Shown here: piece after piece, positions 2,537 through 44,000 of the stretch
How positions within the stretch are numbered: the first letter of the stretch is position 1
How the letters are laid out: each line of letters opens with the position of its first letter
Source: an uncultured Gemmatimonadota bacterium
Lineage (GTDB): Bacteria; JAAXHH01
Length of the DNA stretch: 64,000 bases
Assembly (NCBI GenBank): GCA_951812955.1
Contig: OX638340.1
Coordinates: 3,488,001-3,552,000 of the forward strand
Direction of reading: 5' to 3'
Translations under genes and position numbers: made by a program
Notes under the pieces: model-generated
Told to the model about the DNA's origin: nothing
Databases searched by the model: none
The model's input: the letters and a program-made list of their open reading frames with translations, nothing else

Positions 2537-5500
2537 ATGTTTTTCGAGTCCCGACGGACTTTTAGGCGGTTCGGACGCGCCCGCGTCCAGTTGCTCGTTT
2601 CCCTGTCCTTAATCCTTGCCCTATCCTTGCTCGTCACGTGCGCCAGGGACAACCCCACGCAGTCCCGGTCCGCGGTCACGGCCCGGGTCGTGGTCACGCC
2701 CGAGACCACGGACCTGGCATCGGCAGGACAGTCCGTGCTTCTCAGCGCCCAGGCGCTTGACGACGCCGGCCTGGAAGTCTCGGAGACTCCTGTCACCTGG
2801 CGCAGCAGCGACCCGTCCGTTGCAAGTGTGAGCAAGAACGGCGTGGTCATCGCTACCGGCGAAGGCAGCGTGGTCATAACGGCCATGGCCGGCCAGAAGA
2901 CGGGAAGCGCGCGGGTGACGGTGTCGGATCCGGTGAGGCGGGCCCTGGTCGCCCTGTACAGGGCCACGGGCGGCGAGAACTGGAAGAACAGCGCGAACTG
3001 GCTCAGCGATGAACCCGTTCAGAGATGGCATGGGGTGACAACCGCTGCCGCGGGTAGCGCGTCGGGAACGCGTCCGCGCGCCGATGCGGCTGGCGCGGCG
3101 CTGAATCTGCCCGACAACGGCCTGTCTGGTACGATCCCGCCGGAACTGGGCGACCTGGTCCATCTGCGCGAACTGGACCTGTCCAACAACGGGTTGACGG
3201 GATCGATTCCACCGGAACTGGGCAACCTGTTCCGGCTCGAATTGCTGGATCTCTCCGGTAACCGGTTGTCCGGACCTGTCCCTGCGGAACTGGGCAATTT
3301 GTTTGTCCTGAAGTCTCTGCAACTACAGGACAACGCCGGATTATCCGGTCCCCTTCCTGTTTCTTTCTCCGGCCTGACGGGTCTGGAGACCATGGACCTG
3401 TCGGGCACGGGATTGTGCGCGCCGGCGAACGCGGGGCTTCAGAGGTGGCTCGGAGGAGTGACGACAAGACGGGGCGTCGCGAACTGCGGAGCCGTTGCCG
3501 AACAGGACCGGAAGGCGCTGATCGCGCTGTACGAGACCACGGACGGCCCGAACTGGACGAACAAGACGAACTGGCTGAGCGGGGCCGCTCTCGACCGTTG
3601 GTACGGAGTCTCCACCAACGCGGAAGGGCGTGTAACCGCCCTGCGTCTTTCCGGCAACCGGCTGTCCGGACTCATTCCGACGGCGCTGGGCAACCTAGCC
3701 GCGCTGGTTTCCCTGGACCTCGGGAGCAATGAGCTTTCCGGTACCATACCCGGGGTGTTGGGCAACCTGTCCGCGCTGGTTTCTCTGGACCTGTCCGACA
3801 ACCGGCTGTCGGGACCGATCCCGACAGTCCTGCTCACCCTACATAATCTGCAGACGCTGGACCTGTCCGGCAACCTGTTCGATCTTGAGGAGTCCACGGA
3901 CCGCGACGCCCTGGTCGCCCTGTACAACGCCACAGACGGTCCGAACTGGGTGCGAAAAGACAACTGGCTGAGCGACAGGCCGCTGGGCGAATGGTACGGG
4001 GTGACTACAGACTCTACGGGGAGGGTGACGGAACTTAATCTATGGACTCTAGATGAAGATAACAGATCCGCTAGCAATGGGTTGGCAGGTAGTATCCCGC
4101 CAGAGTTGGGCAACCTGACTAAACTGACACAGCTGGATCTTCGTCGCAATAGGTTATCGGGTAGTATACCACCGGAATTGGGCAACCTGACCAAACTGAA
4201 AACTCTGAGCCTTTCCATCAACGAGTTGTCAGGCCGCATCCCACCGGAACTGGGCAACCTGACCAACCTGATCTGGTTGTGGCTCGACCGTAATCAGTTG
4301 TCAGGCCGCATCCCACCCGAACTAGGTAGCCTGATCAAGTTGGATCAACTGTGGTTACAAGGAAATCAGTTGTCAGGCAGTATTCCATCGGAACTGGGCA
4401 ACTTGAGTAGCCTGAGGCAGCTAGCTCTTATGTCCAGCGGTTTGTCGGGCAGTATACCAGCGGAACTGGGCCGCCTGACCAACCTGATCTGGTTGTGGCT
4501 CGAAGATAATCAACTGTCAGGCCGCATCCCTTCAGAGTTGGGCAATCTGACCCGCCTGGAATCCCTGAGTCTTAACGGAAATGAGTTATCGGGCAGTCTC
4601 CCTTCGGAGTTGGGCAACCTGAGCAACCTGAAACGCCTGTATCTTTTTGACAATACCAATCTGTCGGGTCCGCTGCCCGATTCATTCACTCATCTCAATA
4701 TCGCCAGCCTGTTTCTACGTGGCACGGGGTTGTGTGTGCCGACGGACGCCGCGTTCCAGGCGTGGCTGCAGGGAATCAGGAATAAGGATGGTGTGGTGAA
4801 CTGCACGCTCGCGACGGATGATCGCGACGCCCTGGTCGCCCTGTACAACGCCACCGACGGGCCGAACTGGCGGAACGGCAGGAACTGGCTGAGTGACAGG
4901 CCGCTCGAAGAGTGGTACGGGGTCTCCACCAACGCGGAAGGACGCGTGGACAGCCTGAAGCTATTAGGAAATCGGCTATCGGGCAGCATTTCATCGGAAT
5001 TGGGTAACCTGAGCAACCTGCAAGTCCTGGATCTTCAACGCAATACTGGTTTGTCAGGCAGCATCCCGCCGGAGTTGGGCAATCTGACCAACCTGGAAGT
5101 GCTTGAATTTGATAGAGTTCCTTTGTCAGGCAGCATCCCGCCGGAGTTGGGCAAATTGAGGAACCTGCGTTATCTGGGTCTTTCCCGTAACCAGTTGTCA
5201 GGCCAGGTCCCATCAGAGTTGGGAAACCTGACCAATCTGGAAGTTCTGTGGCTTCACTTCAACGCCAATCTGTCCGGTTCTCTGCCCGCGTCACTCACTG
5301 ATCTCGATAAACTCCGAATCGTGAATCTACGAGGAACCGGGTTGTGCGCGCCGACGGACGCTGCGTTCCAGGCATGGCTGCAGGGCATAGGGAGCAAGAG
5401 TGGTGTGGTGAACTGCGACCCGGTGGGCCCTGTCCCGGGGGACGACCGCGCCGTCCTGGTCGCCCTGTACAACGCCACGGACGGGCCGAACTGGCGGAAC

Positions 5501-8500
5501 GGCACGAACTGGCTGAGTGACAGGCCGCTGAACGAGTGGTATGGGGTCGAGACCAACGCGGCGGGAAGGGTGACGGAACTGAGTCTTTTCGAAGTCGATG
5601 CAAACAACAGGCTAGTTCCCTACGGATTGTCGGGAAGCATTCCGCCGGAACTGGGCAACCTGAGCGAGTTGCAGGCACTGTATCTTCACGGCAACGAGTT
5701 GTCAGGCCGTATCCCGCCGCAACTGGGAAATCTGAGTAAACTTGTAGCCCTGGGCCTTTCCGAAAACGACTTGTCTGGCCGCATTCCGCCGGAACTGGGC
5801 AGTTTGAGTGAGCTAACACACCTGTGGCTTTATGGAAACCAGTTAACGGGCGGTGTCCCTTCGTCCCTGGGCAACCTGAGCAAACTGGAACGCCTGTATC
5901 TACATGCCAACAGCGGGCTTACCGGTCCCTTGCCTGATTCGTTCACCCAACTCAAACAACTGTTTCTACTGAGGCAGGACGGCACGGGCTTGTGCGTTCC
6001 GACAGACACCGCATTCCAGGAGTGGCTTGCTGGAATTCAAGTCAAGACAGGGGTGGTGAACTGCTCGACTCCCGACTCGGACGACCGTGCTGCCCTGATT
6101 GCGCTTTACAACGCCACCGACGGGCCGAACTGGCTTTTCAGCACGAACTGGCTGAGCGACAGGCCGCTCGAAGCGTGGTACGGGGTTACGACCGATGCGA
6201 CGGGTCGCGTTGTTCGGCTGAGTCTACCCGACAACCAGTTATCGGGTTCTATCCCCGCGCAACTGGGCAACCTGAGCAAGTTGAGAGATCTGACCTTGCG
6301 CAGCAACCCTTTATCGGGCCGTATCCCGCCTGAGTTGGGCAACCTGAACAACCTCGAACTGGTTGATTTTCAAGGCATCAGGTTTACGGGAAGTATCCCT
6401 CCGGAACTGGGTAACCTGACCAACCTGGAACATCTGTACATTACCTTCAGCCCGTTGTCAGGGAGTATCCCTCCAGAGTTGGGTAACATGACCAATCTGA
6501 AATCGCTCAACCTTTGGGGCAATCAGTTGTCAGGGCGTATTCCTTCTGAACTGGGCAACCTGACCAACCTGACATGGCTGGCTCTCAGCAACAATCAGTT
6601 GTCGGGCAGCATCCCTTCGGCCCTTGGCAACCTGAGCAATCTGCAAGGGTTGCTTCTTGACGGCAACTCCGCTCTGTCGGGTCCGCTTCCCGCTTCTTTC
6701 ACCGGTCTCGACCGGGTCGGGCGACTGGATCTTCTTGGTACGGGGCTGTGCGTGCCAACGGACGCAGCACTCCAGGCATGGCTCCAGGGGATCGGAACCA
6801 AGAGCGGTGTCGAGAACTGCACGCCCTCCGACTCGGACGACCGCGCCGCCCTGGTCGCCCTGTATAACGCGACCGACGGACCGAACTGGACGAGAAACGA
6901 CAACTGGCTGAGCGACCGGCCGCTGGGAGAGTGGTACGGGGTGACCACCGACTCTGAGGGTAGAGTGACACAGCTGCGGTTCGTAGGTGCAGATGGTTTA
7001 AGTGGCAACGGATTGTCGGGTTCGATCCCCCCGGAACTGGGAAGCCTGAGCGACCTGACATGGCTGAGCCTTCAGCATAACCAGTTGTCGGGCAGCATCC
7101 CTTCTACACTGGGAGACCTGAATAACCTGAGATGGCTGCAACTTTACAATAACCAGTTGTCAGGCAGCATCCCATCTGCACTGGGTAACCTGAGCAATCT
7201 GCAAGAGCTGACCCTTTACCGTAACCAGTTGTCGGGCAGCATCCCATCTGCGCTGGGCAACCTGGGCAACCTGCAAACCCTGGCTCTTAGAAACAACCAG
7301 TTGTCGGGCAGCATTCCATCTGCGCTGGGCAACCTGAGCAACCTGCAAACCCTGGATCTTCAAGTAAACACGGGCCTGACCGGTCCTCTGCCAGCCTCCC
7401 TCACAAATCTCGATGAACTGAATTACCTGTCTCTAAACGGCACAGGGTTGTGTGCACCGACGGAAGCGGCGTTCCAGTCATGGCTCGACGGGATACCAAA
7501 CAAGAGCGTTGTGGTGAACTGCTTCGTGGAGCAGGAAGACCGTGACGCCCTGGTCGCACTGTACAACGCCACGGATGGACCGAACTGGATGAACAACACG
7601 AACTGGCTGAGCGACGACCCGATTGGCAATTGGTACGGGGTGACCACCAACGCCGAAGGGAGGGTAACACGTCTTGGCCTGTACACTATAGTCAACAATA
7701 CATTTACCAGCAACGGTTTGTCCGGTCGCATCCCGCCGGAACTGGGCCGGCTGAGTAAGCTGGAAGTCCTTCGGCTTAGTCCAAACGAGTTGTCCGGTTC
7801 GATCCCGTCGGAGCTGAGCAACCTGAGCAACTTGACACGGCTTGAACTTGGCGGTAATGAGTTGTCGGGCAGCATTCCGCCGGAGTTGGGCAACCTGAGC
7901 AAACTGACAAGTCTGGGTCTTGCCGTCAATGAGTTGTCAGGTAGCATCCCGCCCGAGTTGGGTAATCTGACCAACCTGGAAGAATTGTATCTTCGCAACA
8001 ACACCGGCCTGTCGGGTCCTCTGCCCCATTCGTTCACTCATCTCGAAGATCTCAACGAACTGCTTATGGATGGAACGGGACTGTGCGTGCCGGCGGACGC
8101 CGAGTTTCAGGCGTGGCTAGACGGTATTCAAGGCAGGAAATGGGGGGTGGTGAATTGCGTCTCGCCTTCACCGGACCGTGACGCCCTGGTCGCACTGTAC
8201 AACGCCACGGATGGACCGAACTGGATGAACAACACGAACTGGCTGAGCGACAGGCCGATCGGAGAGTGGTACGGCGTGAGCGTAGACGCCGAAGGGAGCG
8301 TAACAAGCCTTCGCCTGTTCACTGATTCAACATCCAGCAACGCGTTTACCGGCAACGGGTTGTCGGGCAGCATCCCGCCGGAACTGGGTAACCTGGGCAG
8401 CTTACAATCGCTGGATCTTCGCTTCAACAGGTTGTCGGGGAGCATCCCTTCGGCCCTGGGCAACCTGGGGAACTTACAATCGCTGGATCTTCGCTTCAAT

Positions 8501-9769
8501 GTGTTGTCGGGCAGCATCCCTTCGGCCCTGGGCAACCTGGGCAACCTGACACACCTGTATCTCGAAAACAACCAGTTATCGGGCAGCATCCCGCCGGAAC
8601 TGGGCAACCTGGGCAACCTGACACTCCTGTCCCTGTTCTATAATGAGTTGTCGGGCAGTATCCCTTCGGCCCTGGGCAACCTGGGCAACCTGACACACCT
8701 GTATCTTGACGACAACCAGTTGTCGGGCAGCATCCCTTCGGCCCTGGGCAACCTGGGGAACCTGACGCGCCTGATACTTGACAACAACCAGTTGTCGGGG
8801 AGCATCCCGGGGAATCTGGCCCGTCTGCTCGACCTGGAATACCTGTGGCTTGACGGCAACGCGGATCTTACCGGGAGCCTGCCTGTATTTTTCGCCGATC
8901 TTTTAGATAACCTTCGTTCCCTTCGTCTGGAAGGCACGGGACTTTGCGCGCCAGGGACCGCCGATTTCCAGCGTTGGCTCCGCGGGATTGAAGAAAAGAA
9001 CGGTGTGGTGAACTGCGCCGCACAAGATCGGTCCGCCCTGGTCGCCCTGTACAACGCGACCAACGGCCCGAATTGGGAGCGCGACGACAACTGGCTGAGC
9101 AATAGACCCCTTGGAGAGTGGTACGGTGTCAGAACCGACGGAATCGGACGCGTGAGCAGTCTGAATCTCAGAGGCAACCAGTTATCGGGCAGCATCCCGT
9201 CGGAGTTGGGCAGCCTGAACAACCTGGAATCTCTGTGGCTTTCCGGTGGTTTGTCGGGTAGCATTCCATCATCCCTGGGCAACCTGAGCAATCTGGAGCT
9301 CCTGTATCTTGTCAGCCCGTCCAGCGGCGGGTTGTCAGGCAGTATTCCATCATCCCTGGGCAACCTGGGCAACCTGGAACTCCTGGTGCTTGCCGGCCGC
9401 CAGTTTGGCAGCATCCCTTCGTGGATGGGCAACCTGGGCGACCTGGAGCAATTGGTGTTACACGGTGTATCGGGCAGTATCCCGTCAGCACTGGGCAACC
9501 TGAGCAACTTGAAATCACTAAATCTTGCTTACAACGACGGGTTGATCGGCAGCATCCCACCGGCACTGGGCAACCTGGGCAACCTGACATCTATGAATCT
9601 TTTCGACAGCTCCAACCTGTCCGGTCCCCTTCCTACCTCGCTTACCCGTCTTGATCTTCTTGATACCCTGGACATTCGATTTACAGGCTTATGTGCGCCT
9701 CGGATCGCCTCGTTCCAGGCGTGGCTCCGGGGGATTGACGACAAACGGGGTGTGGTGAACTGCCAATAA
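2537..9769 (+). CDS. Giant surface lipoprotein (2410 aa): signal/lipobox, one Big_2 Ig domain, then ten concatenated LRR solenoid modules (nine with a two-Cys C-terminal cap)
   Basis: AAGGAG SD before the ATG and lipobox LLVTCARDNPTQS. Big_2-like stretch VVVTPETTDLASAGQSVLLSAQALDDAG...ITAMAGQKTGSARVTV. There are ten N-cap motifs (ALVALYNATDGPNW..NWLSDRPLGEWYGVTTD..GRVTEL). They are followed by 24-residue units L..L..L.L..N.LSG.IP.ELGNL and caps GTGLCAP.DAAFQAWLQGI....GVVNC. Confidence 0.92.
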   Translation: MFFESRRTFRRFGRARVQLLVSLSLILALSLLVTCARDNPTQSRSAVTARVVVTPETTDLASAGQSVLLSAQALDDAGLEVSETPVTWRSSDPSVASVSKNGVVIATGEGSVVITAMAGQKTGSARVTVSDPVRRALVALYRATGGENWKNSANWLSDEPVQRWHGVTTAAAGSASGTRPRADAAGAALNLPDNGLSGTIPPELGDLVHLRELDLSNNGLTGSIPPELGNLFRLELLDLSGNRLSGPVPAELGNLFVLKSLQLQDNAGLSGPLPVSFSGLTGLETMDLSGTGLCAPANAGLQRWLGGVTTRRGVANCGAVAEQDRKALIALYETTDGPNWTNKTNWLSGAALDRWYGVSTNAEGRVTALRLSGNRLSGLIPTALGNLAALVSLDLGSNELSGTIPGVLGNLSALVSLDLSDNRLSGPIPTVLLTLHNLQTLDLSGNLFDLEESTDRDALVALYNATDGPNWVRKDNWLSDRPLGEWYGVTTDSTGRVTELNLWTLDEDNRSASNGLAGSIPPELGNLTKLTQLDLRRNRLSGSIPPELGNLTKLKTLSLSINELSGRIPPELGNLTNLIWLWLDRNQLSGRIPPELGSLIKLDQLWLQGNQLSGSIPSELGNLSSLRQLALMSSGLSGSIPAELGRLTNLIWLWLEDNQLSGRIPSELGNLTRLESLSLNGNELSGSLPSELGNLSNLKRLYLFDNTNLSGPLPDSFTHLNIASLFLRGTGLCVPTDAAFQAWLQGIRNKDGVVNCTLATDDRDALVALYNATDGPNWRNGRNWLSDRPLEEWYGVSTNAEGRVDSLKLLGNRLSGSISSELGNLSNLQVLDLQRNTGLSGSIPPELGNLTNLEVLEFDRVPLSGSIPPELGKLRNLRYLGLSRNQLSGQVPSELGNLTNLEVLWLHFNANLSGSLPASLTDLDKLRIVNLRGTGLCAPTDAAFQAWLQGIGSKSGVVNCDPVGPVPGDDRAVLVALYNATDGPNWRNGTNWLSDRPLNEWYGVETNAAGRVTELSLFEVDANNRLVPYGLSGSIPPELGNLSELQALYLHGNELSGRIPPQLGNLSKLVALGLSENDLSGRIPPELGSLSELTHLWLYGNQLTGGVPSSLGNLSKLERLYLHANSGLTGPLPDSFTQLKQLFLLRQDGTGLCVPTDTAFQEWLAGIQVKTGVVNCSTPDSDDRAALIALYNATDGPNWLFSTNWLSDRPLEAWYGVTTDATGRVVRLSLPDNQLSGSIPAQLGNLSKLRDLTLRSNPLSGRIPPELGNLNNLELVDFQGIRFTGSIPPELGNLTNLEHLYITFSPLSGSIPPELGNMTNLKSLNLWGNQLSGRIPSELGNLTNLTWLALSNNQLSGSIPSALGNLSNLQGLLLDGNSALSGPLPASFTGLDRVGRLDLLGTGLCVPTDAALQAWLQGIGTKSGVENCTPSDSDDRAALVALYNATDGPNWTRNDNWLSDRPLGEWYGVTTDSEGRVTQLRFVGADGLSGNGLSGSIPPELGSLSDLTWLSLQHNQLSGSIPSTLGDLNNLRWLQLYNNQLSGSIPSALGNLSNLQELTLYRNQLSGSIPSALGNLGNLQTLALRNNQLSGSIPSALGNLSNLQTLDLQVNTGLTGPLPASLTNLDELNYLSLNGTGLCAPTEAAFQSWLDGIPNKSVVVNCFVEQEDRDALVALYNATDGPNWMNNTNWLSDDPIGNWYGVTTNAEGRVTRLGLYTIVNNTFTSNGLSGRIPPELGRLSKLEVLRLSPNELSGSIPSELSNLSNLTRLELGGNELSGSIPPELGNLSKLTSLGLAVNELSGSIPPELGNLTNLEELYLRNNTGLSGPLPHSFTHLEDLNELLMDGTGLCVPADAEFQAWLDGIQGRKWGVVNCVSPSPDRDALVALYNATDGPNWMNNTNWLSDRPIGEWYGVSVDAEGSVTSLRLFTDSTSSNAFTGNGLSGSIPPELGNLGSLQSLDLRFNRLSGSIPSALGNLGNLQSLDLRFNVLSGSIPSALGNLGNLTHLYLENNQLSGSIPPELGNLGNLTLLSLFYNELSGSIPSALGNLGNLTHLYLDDNQLSGSIPSALGNLGNLTRLILDNNQLSGSIPGNLARLLDLEYLWLDGNADLTGSLPVFFADLLDNLRSLRLEGTGLCAPGTADFQRWLRGIEEKNGVVNCAAQDRSALVALYNATNGPNWERDDNWLSNRPLGEWYGVRTDGIGRVSSLNLRGNQLSGSIPSELGSLNNLESLWLSGGLSGSIPSSLGNLSNLELLYLVSPSSGGLSGSIPSSLGNLGNLELLVLAGRQFGSIPSWMGNLGDLEQLVLHGVSGSIPSALGNLSNLKSLNLAYNDGLIGSIPPALGNLGNLTSMNLFDSSNLSGPLPTSLTRLDLLDTLDIRFTGLCAPRIASFQAWLRGIDDKRGVVNCQ

Positions 9770-9798: not shown

Positions 9799-11454
9799 AT
9801 GCTCAGAATGAACCAACGAATTCTGCTGATATTCATTGGTCTGTCGTTGTTTACATTGACTTCCTGTGGCAAGGACAGTCCGACCGAACCCGAGCTGCCT
9901 GAATCACCACCTCCCCCACCCATACCCTCCCGGATCGTGATTACCCCTTCGTCGGTGACGCTCGATGCCATAGGACAGACTGGTCAGTTGACAGCTCAGG
10001 TATTCGATCAGAACAACGCGCTCATGAGCAGCGCGGTAGTCACCTGGACCGGCAGCGATGACGCCGTAGCGACAGTCAGCACTGCCGGATTGGTGACGGG
10101 GGTCGGAAATGGAAGCGCCAGCATCACGGCCAGGTCGGGCGGCTCTTCCGCGAGCGTAAACGTAACGGTCATGCAAACTGCCCACGGTATAGCCATCGAA
10201 CCGCAGACGGCGACGCTCACGGCAATCGGCGAGACCATGCAGTTGACCGCGACCGTACTGGACCGGAACGAACAGCCCGTGGCTGGCGTTGCCGTCTCAT
10301 GGACCAGTAGCGACACAGGCGTTGCGACGGTCGACGATGAGGGACTGGTGACGGCGCTCAGTAGCGGCGAGGTCCGGATCACTGCGTCGCACGGCGGCAT
10401 ATCTGACACTGTCCAGATCAAAGTAGATATCGCCAGTCCCGACAGAGGTACATTGATTACGCTCTACAACGCCCTTGACGGACCGAACTGGACGCACAGT
10501 GCCAACTGGCTATCCAACCGGCTTCTGGGTACATGGCACGGTGTGGAGACCGACGATAATGGAAGAGTCACTAGTCTGAGTCTTTCAGACAACAACCTCA
10601 GCGGCAGTATTCCGCCGGAGTTAGGGAACCTGACCAACCTACAAGAGCTGGATCTTCACGAAAACGCGCAGTTGTCTTGTAGCATTCCGCCGGAGTTGGG
10701 GAACCTGACCAACCTGCGACGACTAAGTTTATTTTCCACTCCGTTTTTACCGGCGATCTTCCCGCCAAGTTGGGATCCTGTACCCAACCCGTTGTGCAGC
10801 ATCCCTGCGGAGTTGGGGAACCTGACCAACCTGCAGGAACTGCGTCTTGGCCTCCACGATTTATCTGGTGGCATCCCTCCGGAGTTGGGGAACCTGACCA
10901 ACCTGCAAAGGTTGGACCTCAGCTTCAACGCATTGTCTGGTAGTATTCCATCGGAGTTGGGGAACCTGGCCAACCTGTATTGGTTGGACCTCAGCATCAA
11001 CGCATTGTCTGGTAGCATTCCGTCGAAGTTGGGGAACCTGGCCAACCTGCAAATACTAAATCTTAACCTCAACGGTTTATTTGGTGGCATCCCTCCTGAG
11101 TTGGGAAACTTGTCCAACCTGCAAGCGTTGGAGCTTGGTTTCAACCGGCTATCTGGTGGCATCCCTCCTGAGTTGGGGAACTTGGCCAACCTGAAAGCGT
11201 TGGAGCTTGGTTTCAACAGATTGTCCGGGAGCGTTCCACCGGAATTGGGAAACCTCTCCGAACTCACGCATCTGTCATTGAGTTACAATGAGGACCTGAC
11301 GGGTCCTCTGCCCGACACATTCACCAGCCTCGACAACCTCCAGTGGCTGATTCTGGATTCTACCGGTTTGTGCGTGCCGTCGGACGCCGCGTTCCAGACG
11401 TGGTTAGAGCATATTCTGGTTGCCCCTGAAGAGGTGTACTGCGAAGCGATGTAG
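9799..11454 (+). CDS. Lipoprotein with two Big_2 domains and one capped LRR module (551 aa)
   Basis: Starts 30 nt after the previous stop. Lipobox LFTLTSCGKDSPTEP. Two Big_2-like repeats (IVITPSSVTLDAIGQTGQLTAQVFDQNN..., IAIEPQTATLTAIGETMQLTATVLDRNE...). N-cap LITLYNALDGPNWTHSANWLSNRLLGTWHGVETDDNGRVTSL, then LRRs, then cap STGLCVPSDAAFQTWLEHILVAPEEVYC. Confidence 0.9.
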   Translation: MLRMNQRILLIFIGLSLFTLTSCGKDSPTEPELPESPPPPPIPSRIVITPSSVTLDAIGQTGQLTAQVFDQNNALMSSAVVTWTGSDDAVATVSTAGLVTGVGNGSASITARSGGSSASVNVTVMQTAHGIAIEPQTATLTAIGETMQLTATVLDRNEQPVAGVAVSWTSSDTGVATVDDEGLVTALSSGEVRITASHGGISDTVQIKVDIASPDRGTLITLYNALDGPNWTHSANWLSNRLLGTWHGVETDDNGRVTSLSLSDNNLSGSIPPELGNLTNLQELDLHENAQLSCSIPPELGNLTNLRRLSLFSTPFLPAIFPPSWDPVPNPLCSIPAELGNLTNLQELRLGLHDLSGGIPPELGNLTNLQRLDLSFNALSGSIPSELGNLANLYWLDLSINALSGSIPSKLGNLANLQILNLNLNGLFGGIPPELGNLSNLQALELGFNRLSGGIPPELGNLANLKALELGFNRLSGSVPPELGNLSELTHLSLSYNEDLTGPLPDTFTSLDNLQWLILDSTGLCVPSDAAFQTWLEHILVAPEEVYCEAM

Positions 11455-31580: not shown

Positions 31581-31811
31581 TTCAGTCTCCTGGTCTATAC
31601 CTTCAAATAGGCTGGATCCAGTTAACATGAATGATCTATGATTCTTGTAGCGTTACGTCCTTACAGTAGTTTAACGTCGACAGGCAACACAGGGAAGTGT
31701 TACTTACAAGCGTACCACAAACACAACATTTTATGAAGACCGGATGAGGTTTGTCGCGCCGATGAGCGGTCTCATGCCCACCTGGCCGCAGGATACGGTG
31801 AAACTTGACCG

Positions 31812-36643: not shown

Positions 36644-38980
36644 ATGACTTTCGAGTTCCGACTTACGTCACGGCGTTTGGGACGCTTCCTCGTCCTGCTG
36701 CTCGCCTGCCTTGCCCTTCCTTTGCTCGTCACGTGCGGCAGGGACACTCCCACGCAGTCACGGACCGCGGTCCCGGCGCGGGTAGTGGTCACGCCTGTGG
36801 CCACGGATCTGGCATCGGCAGGACAGACTGTGCGACTCAACGCCCGGGCGCTTGACGACGCCGGCCAAGAAGTCTCGGAGGCTCCTGTTGCCTGGCGCAG
36901 CACCGACGCGTCGGTGGCGCGCGTGAGCGCGGACGGCGTGGTCACCGCCGTGGGGGAAGGCAGCGCCCTCATAACGGCCATGGCCGGCCAGAAGACGGCT
37001 CAAGCGAAGGTGACGGTGGCGGACCCGGTGCGCGCGGCGCTGCGGGCGCTGTACGAGGCGACGGGCGGGGCGAACTGGAAGAACAGCGACAACTGGCTGA
37101 GCGCCCGGCCCGTTGGCGATTGGTACGGGGTAATCGGCGAGCCATCCGGACCGAGCGGGATTTCGCAACGGAGAACCAGCGCCGGCGGACTGACGCGCCT
37201 GGACCTGTCCGGCAACGGATTGACGGGCGAGATCCCTCCCGTGCTGGGCAGCCTGGCCGGTCTTCGTTATCTGGACCTTTCCGACAACGCGCTGTCCGGC
37301 GCGATCCCTCCTGCGCTGGGCAACCTGTCGTCCCTCGAGACGCTGAAGCTGCACGATAACCGGTTGTCGGGCGAGATCCCTTCGGAACTGGGCAACCTGG
37401 AAAGTCTCCGGGAGCTGTCTCTGCACGGCAACGGGCAACTGACCGGTGCGTTGCCCCTTTCGCTCGCCAACCTGGACCGTCTGGAAACGTTATCCCTTTC
37501 GGGTACGCAGTTGTGCGCGCCGACCGATGCCGCGTTTCAGAACTGGCTGCAAGGAATCGCGAACAGGACCGGCATCTTCAATTGCGGCAACGATACGGAC
37601 GGCGACCGGAACGTGCTGCTCGCCCTGTACAACGCGACGGACGGTCCCAACTGGACGACCCGTACGAACTGGCTGAGCACCCGTCCCCTGTCGTCCTGGC
37701 ACGGGGTGGGCGTGAACGCCGCAGGGCGCGTCGACAGCCTGATCCTCGAAGACAACGCGCTGGCCGGACCGATCCCCGCCAGCCTGGGCAGTCTCGCCGG
37801 CCTCGTGGCGCTGGACGCGAGTGGCAACCAGTTGTCCGGCAGCATCCCGGAGGAGCTGGGCGATCTCTCCGGTCTGGTTACGCTTGATCTCAGCAACAAC
37901 GCGTTGACCGGACCGATCCCGCCGGCGTTGTTCAGCCTGCCCAATCTCGTTACGCTGGAGCTCTCCGGCAATCGGTTTACGGATATCCCGGATACAGACA
38001 TCCCGGATACAGGCACCCCGGTCCTGACGGATCGGGATGTGCTGGTTGCGCTCTACAACGCCACGGACGGCGAGAACTGGACGAACAACACCAACTGGCT
38101 GAGCGACAGGCCGCTAGGGGAATGGCACGGGGTTCGCGTCAATGCGGAGGGGCGCGTCGAAGGACTGGACCTTAGCGCTAACCAGCTATCGGGCCCGATC
38201 CCGACCGAACTCGCAAGCCTCACCAAGTTGACACATCTGTATCTTTACGATAACCAGCTATCGGGCCCGATCCCGGCAGAAATCGCAAGCCTCACCAATT
38301 TGACAGAGCTGGACCTTAGCGAGAACCAGCTATCTGGCCCGATCCCGTCCGAACTCGGCAGCCTCACCAAGTTGGAAGATCTGTGGCTTTTCGGTAATCA
38401 GCTATCGGGTCCCCTGCCCGGAACGTTCACCGGTCTGACAAACTTGGAAAGACTGTCCATCGAAGGAACCGGGTTGTGCGCGCCGACGGACGCGGCCTTC
38501 CAGGCGTGGTTGAGGGGAGTCGATGACAAATCTGGAGTGGTCAACTGTGCCGGCTCAAGCCCAGACCTGATCGTCGCATCGCCATCGGTAAGCGACGACA
38601 CCCTGACGACGGGGCAGTCTTTCACGCTGAGCGCGTCGGTGCGCAACCAGGGCACGGGGCGGTCAGCCTCGACGATCCTGCGCTATTACCGGTCTTCGAA
38701 TTCGACCATCTCATCGTCCGATACGCAGGTCGGCACGGACGCCGTGAGCGCACTGGCCGCATCGGGAACGAGCGCTGAATCGATCAGCCTGTCCGCGCCT
38801 TCGAGCGTCGGGACGTACTACTACGGCGCGTGCGTGGACGAGGTAAGCGGCGAGAGCGATACGGGCAACAACTGCTCTACGGGCGTGCGCGTCACGGTGA
38901 TGGTCGAGGATGACCACGGCGATACTCGGTCTGGAGCGACATCCCCTCGCGCTGAGCGGTTCGGTCTCGGGACGGATTGA
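36644..38980 (+). CDS. Lipoprotein: Big_2, three LRR modules and one CARDB domain. Reading frame broken by a 1-nt frameshift near 38943-38946
   Basis: The ATG at 36644 aligns with the start of paralog 2537. Lipobox LPLLVTCGRDTPTQS. About 65-70% aa identity by eye to 2537-9769 over the first ~200 aa. CARDB-like stretch PDLIVASPSVSDDTLTTGQSFTLSASVRNQG...GTYYYGACVDEVSGESDTGNNCS. The tail after DDHGDTRSGATS is out of frame. Confidence 0.85.
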   Translation: MTFEFRLTSRRLGRFLVLLLACLALPLLVTCGRDTPTQSRTAVPARVVVTPVATDLASAGQTVRLNARALDDAGQEVSEAPVAWRSTDASVARVSADGVVTAVGEGSALITAMAGQKTAQAKVTVADPVRAALRALYEATGGANWKNSDNWLSARPVGDWYGVIGEPSGPSGISQRRTSAGGLTRLDLSGNGLTGEIPPVLGSLAGLRYLDLSDNALSGAIPPALGNLSSLETLKLHDNRLSGEIPSELGNLESLRELSLHGNGQLTGALPLSLANLDRLETLSLSGTQLCAPTDAAFQNWLQGIANRTGIFNCGNDTDGDRNVLLALYNATDGPNWTTRTNWLSTRPLSSWHGVGVNAAGRVDSLILEDNALAGPIPASLGSLAGLVALDASGNQLSGSIPEELGDLSGLVTLDLSNNALTGPIPPALFSLPNLVTLELSGNRFTDIPDTDIPDTGTPVLTDRDVLVALYNATDGENWTNNTNWLSDRPLGEWHGVRVNAEGRVEGLDLSANQLSGPIPTELASLTKLTHLYLYDNQLSGPIPAEIASLTNLTELDLSENQLSGPIPSELGSLTKLEDLWLFGNQLSGPLPGTFTGLTNLERLSIEGTGLCAPTDAAFQAWLRGVDDKSGVVNCAGSSPDLIVASPSVSDDTLTTGQSFTLSASVRNQGTGRSASTILRYYRSSNSTISSSDTQVGTDAVSALAASGTSAESISLSAPSSVGTYYYGACVDEVSGESDTGNNCSTGVRVTVMVEDDHGDTRSGATSPRAERFGLGTD

Positions 38981-41082: not shown

Positions 41083-44000
41083 ATGCCAATATCATACAGG
41101 CTGAGTACAATTTTCAATTTTCATTTCTTTTATAGCGTCGTCGCGGTGCTGTCATTCTTCGTACTGGTTACCTGTGGCAAGGACAGTCCGACCCAACCCA
41201 GGCCGCCAAGTCAACCGCCGGTCCAACCACCCACGCCGGTCCAGCCACCTCCTGCTCCGCAACCCTCTCGCATCACCATCACGCCATCCTTGGTGAATCT
41301 CATGGCGATCGGTCAGACGACGCAGCTCACGGCCTCGGTCCTTGATCAGAACGGGCAGCCAGTTCCCGGCGCGGTCGTTGCATGGTCCAGCAGCGATGAG
41401 GATGTCGCCACCGTGAGCGGCCAGGGGTTGGTAACCGCGGTCAGCAACGGTACGGCCACGATCACCGCCATGGCGGGAAGCGTGTCGGCGACCGCCAGCG
41501 TGCGGGTCTCCCAGACCGCTGGCAGCGTCAAGATCGATCCGGACATGGCCACCCTGATGGCCATTGGGGAAACAGCGCAGCTCACGGCCGTGGTACTCGA
41601 CCAGAACGGGCAGCCAGTTCCCGGCGCGGTCGTTGCATGGTCCAGCAGCGATGAGGATGTCGCCACCGTGAGCGGCCAGGGGTTGGTAACCGCGCTCAGC
41701 AACGGTACGGCCACGATCACCGCCATGGCGGGAAGCGTGTCGGATTCTGCTTTGGTCACGGTCCTCGTTCCCAGAACGGACCGGGATGTTCTGATTGCCT
41801 TCTACGAGAGCACTGGTGGTGAGCAATGGACGGTCAGGTCAAACTGGCTTAGCGTACATCCTCTTGAAACGTGGCTTGGCGTGACCGTCAACTCGGAAGG
41901 CCTGGTAACGGAGATCGACTTGCCGAACAACAATTTGCGCGGACCGCTCACGTCCGAGTTAGGTTATCTGGAAGAGCTCGCGACGCTCCGTCTGAACCAT
42001 AACCAGTTAACGGGTCACATTCCTCCGGAACTCGGCCGACTGGCGAAACTGCGTCACCTGGTGTTGTCCAGCAACCAATTGACCGGAGTGATTCCGACGG
42101 GACTCGGTCAATTAACCGGATTAGAGGAACTGTTGCTGTCCTTCAACCGTCTTTCAGGATCCATACCGGGGGAACTGGGTGACCTGAAGGGACTCAAGAG
42201 GCTGTCGCTTTCAGTCAATGAACTGGATGGACCGGTCCCGGCAGAATTGGGACGACTAAAACAACTGACATCGTTGCGGCTGGACCAGAATCGGTTGTCC
42301 GGGTCAATCCCGCTACACCTTGGCGGGATGACGGTTTTGCGGTCAATGGTACTCGCCGACAATCAGTTAACAGGTGCAATACCAGCCCACCTGTCCTCGT
42401 TGGATAATCTCGAAGAACTGGTGCTGGATCACAACAGACTGGAGGGCGGCATACCCTCACAGTTGTACCGACTTGCCAATCTGAAACGGCTTGGACTCGC
42501 CGGCAACCGGTTATCCGGCGGCGTGCCGGCGTTCTTGGGCAGACTCACCAACCTTACGCACCTGCATCTGTTCTCGAATCGCGGTCTTTCCGGTGTCCTG
42601 CCGCGTTCATTCACCGGTCTTCAACTGGAAGAACTGTTGCTTGAAGGCACGCAGCTTTGCGTACCGCCGGATGACGATTACGAGGCATGGTTGGACCAGA
42701 TTCCAGTGAAGACGGTAACGACCTGCTCCAACCTGGAGTCCAGCGTGTTGGCAACGCTGTACAACGCAACGAATGGAATAAACTGGGCGGATAACACGAA
42801 TTGGCTGAGCGACCGGCCATTGGGTACATGGTATGGCGTGACCACGGACGCCGATGGCTACGTGACGGGTATCGATCTTACGAACAACAATCTGAACGGG
42901 TCCGTACCGGGTGAACTGGCTGGCCTTTCGAAGCTCAAATCGCTGAATCTCAGTACCAACGGTTTTTTGAGAGGGCAGTTACCCCGGGAACTCATCAATC
43001 TTGAACTTCGGGAACTGCTGCTGGAAGACACCCGGTTGTGCGCGCCGCCGGACGCCGAATTCCAGGACTGGCTTCAGACCATTCCGGCAAGAAGCGTATC
43101 CACATGTGATGATCTTGATCTCAATTCGCTTAAGGCCCTGTTCGCGCTCTTCAACGACACGAACGGTCCGGGCTGGCATGACCGGACAAACTGGAACAGT
43201 GATGCGCCGCTGGAGGAATGGTACGGCATCACGGTAGACGAGGACGGCAGGATAACCGAACTGAATCTTGCCGGCAACAATCTCAGCGGCTCGCTCCCCG
43301 CTGACCTGGCAGCACTAACGGAACTGGAACGGCTCGATTTCAGCGACAACGAAGGGCTGACGGGCCCGCTACCGCACGAATGGACAGCACTGACCCTCGA
43401 GTATCTGCGGGTGGAAGGAACGCAGTTGTGCGCTCCACCGGATACCGGGTTTCAGGCCTGGTTGAACGAAATCCCCGAGTACGGCATACCGGAATGTACC
43501 GATACCAGGCCGGACTGGGCTGATACCAATCCTGAATGGGATGTCCTCGAACTCTTGTATAATAGTACGAACGGGAAGGACTGGACGAACAATGAGAACT
43601 GGTTAAGCGAAGCGCCCTTGGATCAGTGGTACGGCATAAAGACGGACGAGGAAGGAAGAGTGACTGAACTTAATCTGGAAGACAACAACCTGTCTGGCGA
43701 ACTACCCCCAAGACTGGGAGATCTAATCGGACTCACGTCGCTGGAACTTTCGTTTAATAAACTTTCGGGTTCAATTCCCGCTGAACTCGGACAGTTGACA
43801 GCCCTTGAAACTTTGTTTCTGGACGATAACGCCCTTTCGGGTCCGATACCCGCCGAACTCGGACAATTTTCCGGCCTGCGAAGATTGGATCTGGGCTGGA
43901 ACGATCTCTCTGGCGTGATTCCCGCTGAACTCAGGCAGTTGACGGGCCTTACCTCGCTCGGTCTGCGCTTCAACAACCTTTCGGGCGTGATTCCCGCTTT

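What the first reader, a model, noticed from the sequence alone, without database searches (positions are those of the whole stretch)
2537..9769. Ten complete, individually capped LRR solenoids strung in one 2410-aa lipoprotein, with a conserved two-cysteine C-terminal cap
Each module has three parts:
- An N-cap, DR.AL(V/I)ALYNATDGPNW....NWLSD.PL.EWYGVTTD..GRVT.L. It looks like the plant LRRNT_2 cap with its Cys pair replaced.
- Several 24-residue units L..L..L.L..N.LSG.IP.ELGNL, the plant-specific LRR consensus.
- An irregular last repeat followed by GTGLC(A/V)P.D..FQ.WL.GI....GVVNC.
The two invariant Cys per cap suggest an extracytoplasmic disulfide. Module 2 lacks the cap in this gene, and the same is true of its paralog 36644. 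The N-cap and LRR type are common in bacterial LRR proteins. The concatenation of up to ten closed solenoids and this particular Cys cap may not be described.
Basis: partly seen in the sequence, partly recalled or inferred. Interest (0 to 1): 0.6.

Follow-up and report, generated by a model that had tools for sequence, protein, structure and literature searches.

The report
Bacterial string of ten capped LRR domains
One 2410-residue probable surface lipoprotein strings together ten small plant-receptor-like leucine-rich-repeat domains, nine closed by a two-cysteine end-cap absent from the curated family libraries; the same cap and beads-on-a-string layout recur in many uncultured marine bacteria, so it is an unannotated domain family rather than a one-off.

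Summary
ORF 2537-9769(+) encodes 2410 aa: a signal peptide ending in Cys35, one Big_2 Ig domain, then ten N-cap + 24-residue plant-type LRR modules. All 19 Cys are the leader Cys plus the 18 cap Cys.

In 581 cap instances from 141 diverse database proteins, 580 have the second Cys (mostly +22 to +24). This supports a structural disulfide, but I could not measure the distance.

The cap aligns without gaps to the first half of the animal LRRCT of Nogo receptor, but only weakly (hhalign probability 17-27%).

The architecture is not unique: other metagenome proteins carry up to 11 caps, in MAGs of at least five phyla, some from sponge metagenomes.

Concave-face positions are hypervariable and the scaffold is near-invariant. 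This fits a multivalent surface binding array. Paralogs fuse the same modules to an M66-like metalloprotease.

Verdict: new variant of a known kind, moderate interest.

The parts
2537..9769 (+). Whole gene: 2410-aa probable surface lipoprotein made of a signal peptide, a Big_2 domain and ten LRR modules.
   Evidence: ORF list and translation. Pfam hits LRR_14/LRR_1/LRR_4/LRR_8 and Big_2.
2537..2641 (+). Signal peptide. It has a positively charged n-region and the hydrophobic core LLVSLSLILALSLLV, and ends in the lipobox-like L-V-T-C35. The sequence after the Cys is ARDNPT.
   Evidence: Read from the sequence. Six of the seven paralogs in the window share Cys followed by [GA]-[KR]-D-[SNT]-P-T, as do 23 of 150 database relatives. 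No signal-peptide predictor was available.
2675..2926 (+). Bacterial Ig-like (Big_2) domain between the lipid anchor and the first LRR module. It probably acts as a stalk.
   Evidence: Pfam Big_2 E 7.5e-06 over aa 82-129, and Big-like.
2930..3502 (+). Module 1 (aa 132-322): N-cap, a Gly/Ala-rich insertion replacing the first strand, four G.IP repeats, and a C-cap (nt 3413-3487, Cys294/Cys317).
   Evidence: It is 60% identical to the head of the paralog at 36644.
3503..3895 (+). Module 2 (aa 323-453): N-cap and about four LRRs with no C-cap. It ends ...LDLSGNLFDLEES and runs straight into the N-cap of module 3.
   Evidence: The same uncapped module 2 is present in paralog E and in E's ortholog L017.
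3896..4816 (+). Module 3 (aa 454-760), the longest module, with nine G.IP repeats. C-cap at nt 4730-4804 (Cys733/Cys756).
4817..5440 (+). Module 4 (aa 761-968), the module that was modelled. C-cap at nt 5342-5416 (Cys937/Cys960).
5441..6079 (+). Module 5 (aa 969-1181). C-cap at nt 5990-6064 (Cys1153/Cys1176).
   Evidence: The two-module model of modules 4+5 keeps both solenoids; the linker has low confidence and pTM is 0.54.
6080..6835 (+). Module 6 (aa 1182-1433). C-cap at nt 6746-6820 (Cys1405/Cys1428).
6836..7534 (+). Module 7 (aa 1434-1666). C-cap at nt 7448-7522 (Cys1639/Cys1662).
7535..8170 (+). Module 8 (aa 1667-1878). C-cap at nt 8081-8158 (Cys1850/Cys1874; one extra residue in the loop).
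8171..9022 (+). Module 9 (aa 1879-2162). C-cap at nt 8942-9016 (Cys2137/Cys2160).
9023..9766 (+). Module 10 (aa 2163-2410), with several irregular repeats. C-cap at nt 9689-9763 (Cys2386/Cys2409). The protein ends one residue after Cys2.
9799..11454 (+). Paralog B: lipoprotein leader, two Big_2 domains and one long capped LRR module.
20382..22145 (-). Paralog D: leader, Big_2, PKD/Big_9 and one capped LRR module. This holds the 21st cap of the window.
36644..38980 (+). Paralog E: its head is 60% identical to A aa 1-448. Module 1 is capped, module 2 is uncapped and module 3 is capped, followed by a CARDB domain.
41083..46005 (+). Paralog F: leader, two Big_2 domains, four capped LRR modules (two of only 124 aa), then a ~480-aa HExxH domain that is weakly M66-like.
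46064..50176 (+). Paralog G: leader, four capped LRR modules, then the same HExxH (M66-like) domain.

Best explanation
The gene encodes an extracytoplasmic protein that is probably lipid-anchored at the cell surface. It is a flexible chain of ten independently folded LRR solenoids, each the size of a plant receptor ectodomain.

Each module begins with a Cys-free version of the plant-type N-cap helix. Nine of the ten end with a C-cap of about 28 residues. In that cap the last LRR strand carries Cys1, an amphipathic helix (xFQxWLxxI) lies over the exposed hydrophobic core, and a short return strand brings Cys2 back. Cys2 sits about one repeat period (22-24 residues) after Cys1, so the two can form a disulfide that staples the cap shut. 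This is the same design as the first half of the animal LRRCT cap. It may be convergent or very distantly related.

The scaffold and caps are under strong constraint, while the concave beta-face positions differ from repeat to repeat and between orthologs. Each bead is therefore most likely a separate ligand-binding surface, and the whole protein a multivalent, multi-specific binder or adhesin.

Paralogs in the same window fuse one to four of the same capped modules to an M66-like zinc metalloprotease. There the modules plausibly serve as targeting domains. The protease-less ten-module protein would act by binding alone.

The likely targets are extracellular proteins or glycoproteins of a eukaryotic host or partner. 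The family is found in MAGs of phyla typical of marine sponge microbiomes.

Shown: the anatomy, the fold class, the Cys co-conservation, the variability pattern and the distribution.
Inferred: the disulfide itself, surface exposure, ligand binding and the host link.
For: Anatomy.

Fold:
- The single-module AF2 model has pLDDT 96.6 and pTM 0.91.

Independent beads:
- Linkers between modules are 3-10 residues long.
- The two-module model keeps both solenoids, but pTM drops to 0.54 and the linker has low pLDDT.

Disulfide:
- The protein has 19 Cys, which are 18 cap Cys plus the leader Cys.
- In 581 caps from 141 representatives that are at most 50% identical to each other, 580 have the second Cys, with modal spacing 22-24.
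- The leader indicates export.

LRRCT-like logic: hhalign places Cys1 on NgR C264, FQxWL on WAWL and Cys2 on C287 without gaps. The NgR sequence was verified against 1ozn.

Binding face:
- Entropy is 2.7-3.4 bits at the x positions of LxxLxLxx, against 0.5 bits or less at scaffold positions, across 35 repeats.
- Between E and its ortholog L017, concave positions are 38% identical, scaffold 92% and caps about 80%.

Protease fusions: F, G and C carry HE.GHN..L.H with weak M66 hits, and 48 of 142 relatives carry that motif.

Distribution:
- 39,897 representative proteins score E<=1e-3. This is an upper bound, because the profile includes LRR columns.
- 44 loci lie in MAGs of Latescibacterota, Dehalococcoidia, Gemmatimonadota, Acidimicrobiales, Gammaproteobacteria and others.
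- SB066x bins come from the sample series that yielded sponge-associated Entoporibacteria.
Against: - No coordinates were available, so the Cys-Cys distance was not measured. By my register the two Cys sit at repeat positions 12 and 10, not identical positions.
- The lipobox is non-canonical (Thr at -1; Arg at -1 in paralog G), and no signal-peptide or lipoprotein predictor was run.
- The pTM drop in the two-module model may partly reflect the shallow 7-sequence alignment.
- No ligand, expression or localisation data exist.
- The source organism of the window is unidentified. Its closest relatives are labelled only 'MAG: bacterium', so the sponge link rests on the labels of related MAGs.
- The ortholog variability comparison rests on only 8 repeats.
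- LRRCT similarity is below significance (probability 17-27%). Neither the Pfam LRRCT model nor a PDB hmmsearch detects the cap.
Confidence: 0.6

Rival explanations
1. Passive structural surface coat or spacer. On this reading the chain of solenoids is a rigid or semi-rigid fibre that forms a protective or S-layer-like coat, or keeps other surface proteins away from the membrane. It would have no specific ligands, and the concave-face variability would be neutral drift.
For: - The protein is very long and repetitive, has no catalytic domain, and has a Big_2 stalk next to the lipid anchor.
- The scaffold and caps are highly conserved.
Against: - Variability is concentrated exactly at the canonical LRR ligand-binding positions and is enriched in W, Y and H there.
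- The same modules are fused to proteases in paralogs, which is typical of targeting domains.
- Module number and length vary freely between relatives, which is unlike a lattice-forming protein.
Confidence: 0.15
2. Recent horizontal acquisition of plant or algal LRR receptor ectodomains. On this reading the modules are captured eukaryotic SERK-like ectodomains that mimic host receptors or co-receptors and sequester host peptide ligands (molecular mimicry).
For: - Repeats are 30-40% identical to plant LRR-RLK ectodomains, and the best structural matches are SERK co-receptors of the same size.
Against: - Neither cap is the plant cap. The N-cap lacks the plant Cys pair and does not hit Pfam LRRNT_2.
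- The C-cap has a helix and a 22-24-residue Cys spacing instead of the short plant C-terminal Cys pair.
- The family is deep and diverse within bacteria across several phyla, with bacterial partner domains (Big_2, CARDB, HExxH).
- The MAG hosts named include sponge and other marine bins, not plant-associated genomes, but the habitats of most were not looked up.
Confidence: 0.07
3. The cap Cys pair is not a disulfide. It could instead be a metal-binding or redox-sensing pair, or the protein may stay in a reducing compartment where the Cys are free.
For: - No distance measurement was possible.
- Several host lineages, for example Dehalococcoidia, have an atypical cell envelope (from general knowledge, not tested here).
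Against: - Two Cys alone are a poor metal site, and there is no conserved His, Asp or further Cys nearby.
- All paralogs have export leaders.
- The spacing equals one solenoid turn, which places the two Cys on adjacent turns.
- Every other Cys is excluded from 2410 residues, as expected for an oxidising compartment.
Confidence: 0.08

Closest known systems
Animal LRRCT C-terminal cap (Pfam PF01463 / SMART SM00082; e.g. Nogo receptor 1OZN, GPIb-alpha, Slit)
   Same: - It closes the last LRR with an alpha-helix whose Trp/Leu face covers the hydrophobic core, and it is stapled by a disulfide from a Cys just after the last strand.
- The cap aligns without gaps to NgR [25 protein letters not shown]. 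Cys1 falls on the first LRRCT Cys, WL on WL, and Cys2 on the third LRRCT Cys, 23 residues on.
- LRRCT is described as a helix covering the core, with normally four Cys and two disulfides, and as apparently exclusive to animals (PMC2637281).
   Different: - It has two Cys instead of four, so one disulfide instead of two.
- It lacks the NPWxCxC start and the second half of LRRCT, and is only about 28 residues long.
- It is not detected by the Pfam LRRCT model at E<=10.
- The hhalign probability is only 17-27%.
- It is found in bacteria.
- The C1-C3 disulfide connectivity of NgR is taken from my own knowledge, not from a tool.
Slit proteins (four tandem LRR domains D1-D4, each with its own Cys-rich N- and C-caps)
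   Different: - There are ten modules instead of four.
- The repeat class is plant-specific 24-residue, not 'typical'.
- The N-cap has no Cys and the C-cap is different.
- It is a bacterial lipoprotein context with no EGF or laminin-G domains.
Plant SERK/BAK1-type LRR co-receptor ectodomains and PGIP
   Same: - Same repeat class and consensus (LxxLxLxxNxLSGxIPxxLGxL).
- Same overall size: about 5 LRRs in about 200 residues.
- Same N-cap fold: a helix, then W...W.GV.
   Different: - The plant N-cap Cys pair is replaced (by my own reading of the motifs, ...PL.EWYGVTTD against the plant ...C.W.GV.C).
- The plant C-terminal cap is a short Cys pair without the FQxWL helix.
- There is no transmembrane helix or kinase, and the modules are concatenated.
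Bacterial LRR proteins with the same N-cap (Pfam LRR_10 PF18805-like; e.g. Bacteroides BACEGG_03329, PDB 4ECO)
   Same: - The N-cap motif ALxALYxxTxGxxWxxxxNW....W.GV and the plant-type repeats are widespread in bacterial secreted LRR proteins.
- The weak LRR_10 hit covers exactly the N-cap.
   Different: The LRR_10 score (18.8 bits) is below the gathering threshold (30). Whether those proteins carry the two-Cys C-cap or occur in long capped tandem arrays was not examined here.
Eukaryotic-like proteins (ELPs) of sponge symbionts
   Same: LRR-containing proteins are listed among the ELPs of sponge-associated Latescibacterota and other symbiont phyla (PMC12993501). Relatives of this gene lie in MAGs of those phyla, some from sponge metagenome bins.
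   Different: ELP surveys count Pfam/CDD LRR hits. The ELP paper I read (PMC12993501) and the abstracts listed do not mention the cap, the module structure or the protease fusions. The habitat of this window itself is unknown.

Membership tests
Plant-specific (PS) LRR class | 24-residue repeat with consensus LxxLxLxxNxLSGxIPxxLGxLxx | tested here: met
   35 canonical repeats give the consensus GSIPPELGNLxxLxxLxLxxNxLS. The profile hits plant LRR-RLK ectodomains at E 2e-230.
Plant-specific (PS) LRR class | beta-beta-3(10) structural unit per repeat (PMC5976695) | tested here: met
   DSSP on the AF2 model shows two short strands plus a 5-residue helix in every repeat. This is a model, not an experimental structure.
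LRRNT_2 (Pfam PF08263, plant N-terminal cap) | Match to the Pfam model at or above the gathering score | tested here: not met
   No LRRNT_2 hit at E<=0.01 on the full protein or at E<=10 on the isolated N-cap. The only hit is LRR_10 at 18.8 bits against a cutoff of 30.
LRRNT_2 (Pfam PF08263, plant N-terminal cap) | Conserved Cys pair in the C.W.GV.C motif | tested here: not met
   None of the ten N-caps contains Cys. The motif reads PL.EWYGVTTD.
LRRNT_2 (Pfam PF08263, plant N-terminal cap) | Same fold: N-terminal helix packing on the first LRR | tested here: met
LRRCT (Pfam PF01463 / SMART SM00082) | Four Cys forming two disulfides (PMC2637281) | tested here: not met
   There are exactly two Cys per cap.
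LRRCT (Pfam PF01463 / SMART SM00082) | NPWxCxCx3Wx3W start motif | tested here: not met
   The cap starts GTGLC(A/V)P..D..FQ.WL. It has one Cys and one invariant Trp.
LRRCT (Pfam PF01463 / SMART SM00082) | Alpha-helix with Trp on its inner face covering the core of the last LRR | tested here: inconclusive
   The model has helix 185-192 (AAFQAWLQ), with F/W/L invariant or nearly so. Orientation could not be inspected without coordinates.
LRRCT (Pfam PF01463 / SMART SM00082) | Detectable sequence homology to the family | tested here: inconclusive
   Pfam hmmscan of 20 caps at E<=10 gives no LRRCT hit. hhalign against the NgR LRRCT gives a gapless 21-25 column alignment in the right register, but probability is only 17-27%.
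Slit-like tandem capped LRR architecture | Several LRR domains in one chain, each with its own N- and C-cap, joined by short linkers | tested here: met
   N and C caps alternate along the chain with 3-10-residue linkers. This is architectural resemblance only; the caps are not the Slit caps.
Bacterial lipoprotein | Signal peptide ending in the lipobox [LVI][ASTVI][GAS]-C | tested here: inconclusive
   The n- and h-regions are present and there is an invariant Cys at the end of the h-region in all seven paralogs. The -1 residue, however, is T (A, C, E, F), S (B, D) or R (G). No predictor was available.
Sponge-symbiont eukaryotic-like proteins | Encoded by, and enriched in, sponge-associated symbiont genomes | tested here: inconclusive
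   Relatives lie in MAGs of Latescibacterota, Dehalococcoidia, Gemmatimonadota and others, some from sponge bins. No enrichment test was done and the window's source is unknown.

The most novel reading that the evidence does not exclude
The two-Cys cap may be a bacterial counterpart of the animal LRRCT, a cap type so far regarded as exclusive to animals. It may mark a large, unannotated family of modular surface receptors. In that family, uncultured marine (probably sponge-associated) bacteria of several phyla would shuffle and diversify small capped LRR 'cassettes' on their concave faces to recognise host or partner molecules. Functionally this would be a bacterial analogue of diversified LRR recognition repertoires such as plant receptor-like proteins or lamprey VLRs. 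The cassettes would sometimes be coupled to a novel M66-like protease as the effector.
Probability: 0.3. Interest if true: 0.65.

Novelty: new variant of a known kind. Interest (0 to 1): 0.4.

Why it matters
Disulfide-stapled caps decide whether an LRR solenoid folds and stays soluble. They are also used as annotation landmarks, as the LRRCE paper argues for SLRPs (PMC2637281). Here a compact cap of about 28 residues defines domain boundaries in thousands of large bacterial proteins that public sources leave unnamed.

A profile for the cap would do three things:
- It would let these giant proteins be parsed into units of 120-300 residues that can be expressed.
- It would give protein engineers a minimal bacterial C-cap for plant-type repeats.
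- It would flag a family that is a good candidate for host recognition in sponge and other marine symbioses. There, LRR 'eukaryotic-like proteins' are counted, but none of the ELP literature I looked at analyses them at the level of caps, modules or partner domains.

The resemblance to the first half of the animal LRRCT raises a question that can be tested: is that cap design convergent, or older than animals?

Tried and rejected
- The search for homologous proteins with the cap alignment returned only 7 short fragments out of 299 candidates. It confirmed that the cap exists elsewhere but was useless for distribution. No named homolog was obtained.
It was repeated with 7 close caps.
- The metagenome-contig scan with the narrow pattern GT[GQ]LC[AV]PT[DE] gave a single locus.
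- Exact look-ups of three window proteins found nothing, so the source organism stays unidentified. The nearest relatives are labelled only 'MAG: bacterium'.
- The afdb50 fold library was unavailable.
Structure prediction returns no coordinates, and /data holds none.
- A faint Pfam Fasciclin hit on the cap (aa 732-749) was treated as chance resemblance to the fasciclin 'xPTxxAF' motif. It appeared for 1 of 20 caps at E 0.24.
- An assembly or collapsed-repeat artefact was rejected. Modules are only 60-82% identical at the DNA level. The odd uncapped module 2 is conserved in a paralog and in that paralog's ortholog from another genome.
- The HExxH domain of the paralogs has no PDB or NCBIfam match. 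Only weak Pfam M66/Reprolysin_3 hits were found.
- Literature searches found no description of this cap or architecture. The library lacks most subscription journals, so this is 'not found', not 'absent'.
Full report

Yes. The window has an ATG-initiated ORF at 2537-9769 (+) of 2410 codons. A motif parse finds ten N-caps, with the LVALY core at aa 137, 328, 459, 766, 974, 1187, 1439, 1672, 1884 and 2168. It finds nine C-caps of the form GTGLC(A/V)P.D..FQ.WL.GI....GVVNC. Module 2 (aa 323-453) ends ...LDLSGNLFDLEES and runs straight into the next N-cap with no cap of its own.

The protein has 19 Cys. One is Cys35 at the end of the signal peptide and 18 are the cap pairs, spaced 23-24 residues apart. 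No other Cys occurs in 2410 residues.

The repeat unit is 24 residues. Thirty-five canonical copies give G-S-I-P-P-E-L-G-N-L-x-x-L-x-x-L-x-L-x-x-N-x-L-S. By my parse the modules have about 4 to 10 LRR turns each.

A six-frame scan of the whole window finds exactly 21 C-caps and 23 N-caps in six genes:
- A, 2537-9769
- B, 9799-11454
- D, 20382-22145 (minus strand)
- E, 36644-38980
- F, 41083-46005
- G, 46064-50176

At the DNA level the modules are only 60-82% identical. The array is therefore old and diverged, not a collapsed-repeat assembly artefact.

**2. What each part is**

Leader. The N-terminus has a basic n-region and a hydrophobic core, and ends at L-V-T-C35. Thr at -1 is not the canonical lipobox residue. 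In the paralogs the -1 residue is T, S or even R. Even so, all seven leader-bearing genes of the cluster have a Cys at the end of the h-region. Six of them continue C-[GA]-[KR]-D-[SNT]-P-T, and the same motif is present in 23 of 150 database relatives. I read this as a probable lipoprotein with a lineage-specific post-Cys signal. No predictor was available to confirm it.

Stalk. A Big_2 Ig-like domain follows the leader.

LRR portion. A profile of the modules hits plant LRR receptor-kinase ectodomains in the PDB (GSO1, MIK2, FLS2, PEPR1, BRI1) at E down to 2e-230. No hit extends past profile position ~178 of 198, so none reaches into the cap.

N-cap. By sequence the N-cap has no Cys and does not match Pfam LRRNT_2. 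The only hit is a sub-threshold LRR_10 match (E 1.4e-3, 18.8 bits against a cutoff of 30).

**3. The C-cap**

In the model the last LRR strand (178-181, G-L-C-A) carries Cys1. In my register it sits where ordinary repeats have the Ser of 'NxLSG'. Helix 185-192 (AAFQAWLQ) follows, then a short strand (196-198), a beta-bridge at residue 202, and Cys2 at 203.

Across the 20 caps of alignment A1, the invariant residues are G, L, P, L, T, C, W and C.

No existing library covers the cap:
- Pfam-A gives nothing on an isolated cap at E<=10.
- Pfam-A gives nothing but LRR_1/4/8 on the flanking repeats of all 20 caps.
- NCBIfam has nothing.
- phmmer and hmmsearch against PDB sequences find nothing.

By the criteria available here, the cap is not an existing annotated family.

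**4. Is the Cys pair a disulfide?**

I could not measure the distance, because coordinates are not exposed. The indirect evidence is strong.

A cap HMM run over the 150 best representatives from the exhaustive search (clusters at 50% identity or less) found 581 instances with Cys1. Of these, 580 have a second Cys 19-37 residues downstream, with modes at 22, 23 and 24. The single exception is a disrupted or truncated C-terminus.

The spacing equals one repeat period. That places the two Cys on adjacent turns of the solenoid (inference). All genes have export leaders, and non-cap Cys are excluded from this protein.

**5. Relation to known caps**

The animal LRRCT is described as a helix covering the core of the last LRR. 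It normally has four Cys and two disulfides, starts NPWxCxCx3Wx3W, and is 'apparently exclusive to animal proteins' (PMC2637281).

I verified the Nogo-receptor LRRCT sequence against 1ozn and compared it with the cap profile by hhalign.
- Cys1 falls on the first LRRCT Cys.
- FQxWL falls on WAWL.
- In the longer alignment, Cys2 falls on the third LRRCT Cys, 23 residues on.

The probability is only 17% and 27%. From my own knowledge, not a tool, the first and third LRRCT Cys are disulfide-bonded (C264-C287 in NgR).

So the bacterial cap works like the first half of an LRRCT. It fails the family's defining tests: two Cys rather than four, no NPWxCxC, and no HMM match. Homology is undecided.

**6. 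Are the modules independent beads?**

Linkers from Cys2 to the next N-cap helix are 3-10 residues long and rich in Pro, Ser and Asp.

A two-module model (aa 758-1181) keeps both solenoids with the same secondary structure. The linker has low confidence and pTM drops to 0.54. This is consistent with flexible beads, but the alignment had only 7 sequences, so the evidence is weak.

**7. How common is it?**

The exhaustive profile search over 1.84 billion representatives gave 39,897 proteins at E<=1e-3, 12,804 at E<=1e-10 and 1,281 at E<=1e-30. The first numbers are upper bounds, because the 60-column profile includes LRR columns.

Of the top 150, 142 contain at least one cap. Counts reach 11 (P0009), 10 (P0013) and 9 (P0008, P0016), with regular N-C alternation. 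The ten-module chain is therefore near the top of the range but not unique.

None of the eight large relatives I looked up carries a name in any source.

A pattern scan of one genome per species found 44 loci. They lie in MAGs of Latescibacterota, Dehalococcoidia, Gemmatimonadota (Longimicrobiales, Ca. Palauibacter), Acidimicrobiales, Opitutia, Gammaproteobacteria and Cyclobacteriaceae, most with several caps within 6 kb.

Some of those bins (SB066x) belong to a sample series that also yielded sponge-associated Entoporibacteria (PMC7883664). Palauibacterales reach their highest abundance in sponges and marine sediments (PMC10469786). LRR proteins are listed among the 'eukaryotic-like proteins' of sponge Latescibacterota (PMC12993501).

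The window's own organism is not identified. Its closest relatives among the loci are two MAGs labelled only 'bacterium': L017, at 82% identity on the N-terminus of A, and L028, at 68-73% on the protease domain.

**8. What it probably does**

Across the 35 canonical repeats, Shannon entropy is 2.7-3.4 bits at the x positions of LxxLxLxx, the concave beta-face. W, Y and H are frequent there. Entropy is 0.5 bits or less at scaffold positions, and the convex GSIPPELGNL segment is almost invariant.

Between paralog E and its ortholog in L017 (75% identical overall), concave positions are 38% identical, scaffold positions 92% and caps about 80% (only 8 repeats). This is the pattern expected of LRR proteins whose concave face binds ligands and diversifies.

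In the same window, F and G fuse four capped modules to a ~480-residue HExxH domain (HE[IL]GHN.NLYH ... DLMSYC; weak Pfam M66 hits). ORF C fuses eight CARDB domains to the same domain. Of 142 relatives, 48 carry the HE.GHN..L.H motif.

The most economical reading has two parts. The capped modules are portable recognition units. The ten-module protein is a multivalent, multi-specific binder on the cell surface. The host or partner target is inferred, not shown.

**9. Rivals**

Four alternatives were considered: a purely structural coat, recent capture of plant ectodomains, a non-disulfide role for the Cys pair, and an assembly artefact. Each is less well supported, for the reasons given in the rival and rejected sections.

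**10. Verdict**

The finding is real and accurately described. The cap is a previously unannotated LRR C-terminal capping motif, stapled by two Cys and LRRCT-like in design. The beads-on-a-string layout is a recurrent architecture in uncultured marine bacteria, not a singularity of this gene.

It is a new variant of a known kind (capped extracellular LRR domains in tandem). Interest is moderate. It would rise if the LRRCT relationship or a host-recognition role were demonstrated.

Noticed in passing
window 2639-2662, 9865-9888, 20221-20244 (-), 36734-36757, 41173-41196, 46133-46156: Six of the seven leader-bearing paralogs continue after the lipobox Cys with the near-identical motif C-[GA]-[KR]-D-[SNT]-P-T. 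The same motif follows the leader Cys in 23 of 150 diverse database relatives. It looks like a lineage-specific lipoprotein sorting or surface-export signal. That reading is a lead only.
   Followed up: partly
window 44554-46002 (+), 48698-50173 (+), 14815-16314 (-): A ~480-490-residue C-terminal domain with HE.GHN..L.H and a DLMSYC Met-turn-like motif is shared by ORFs F, G and C. It gives only weak Pfam M66/Reprolysin_3 hits and no PDB or NCBIfam match. It is probably an undescribed metzincin-like family, and 48 of 142 cap-bearing relatives carry the motif.
   Followed up: partly
window 14815-20364 (-): An 1849-aa lipoprotein has the same leader and the same C-terminal protease domain, but carries eight CARDB repeats plus Big_9/cadherin-like domains in place of LRR modules. 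Each CARDB repeat has its own conserved Cys pair (YYYGACVD...NNCS). The cluster seems to swap binding modules on a common chassis.
   Followed up: no
window 22001-24000: GC content drops to 0.47 here, against 0.55-0.65 elsewhere. ORF 22272-22979 (-) in this stretch has no Pfam hit. It may be foreign or intergenic DNA next to the paralog cluster.
   Followed up: no
P0004, P0007 (database fragments): In two metagenome fragments the cap is followed directly by dockerin/EF-hand-like repeats (DANNNGTIEKAEVIEAINDYLFG). This suggests the capped module is also used in cohesin-dockerin-type assemblies.
   Followed up: no
L017:1-3441 (OY762445.1): The ortholog of paralog E in another MAG keeps the capped / uncapped / capped order of modules 1-3. 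It adds, by eye, a pre-peptidase-C-terminal-like domain before the CARDB domain. The missing cap of module 2 is therefore an inherited feature, which raises the question of whether the next N-cap helix closes module 2.
   Followed up: partly
window 28830-31628 (-): A 932-aa protein has a weak Omp85-superfamily hit (E 1.3e-6). It lies between the two groups of lipoprotein paralogs. This indicates a diderm envelope, and it is a conceivable partner for surface lipoprotein export.
   Followed up: no
window 42736-43107 and 43126-43497 (+), 47282-47656 (+): These are minimal capped modules of only 124-125 residues: N-cap, two to three LRRs and C-cap. They are the smallest natural versions of the unit and good targets for expression or structure work.
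   Followed up: no
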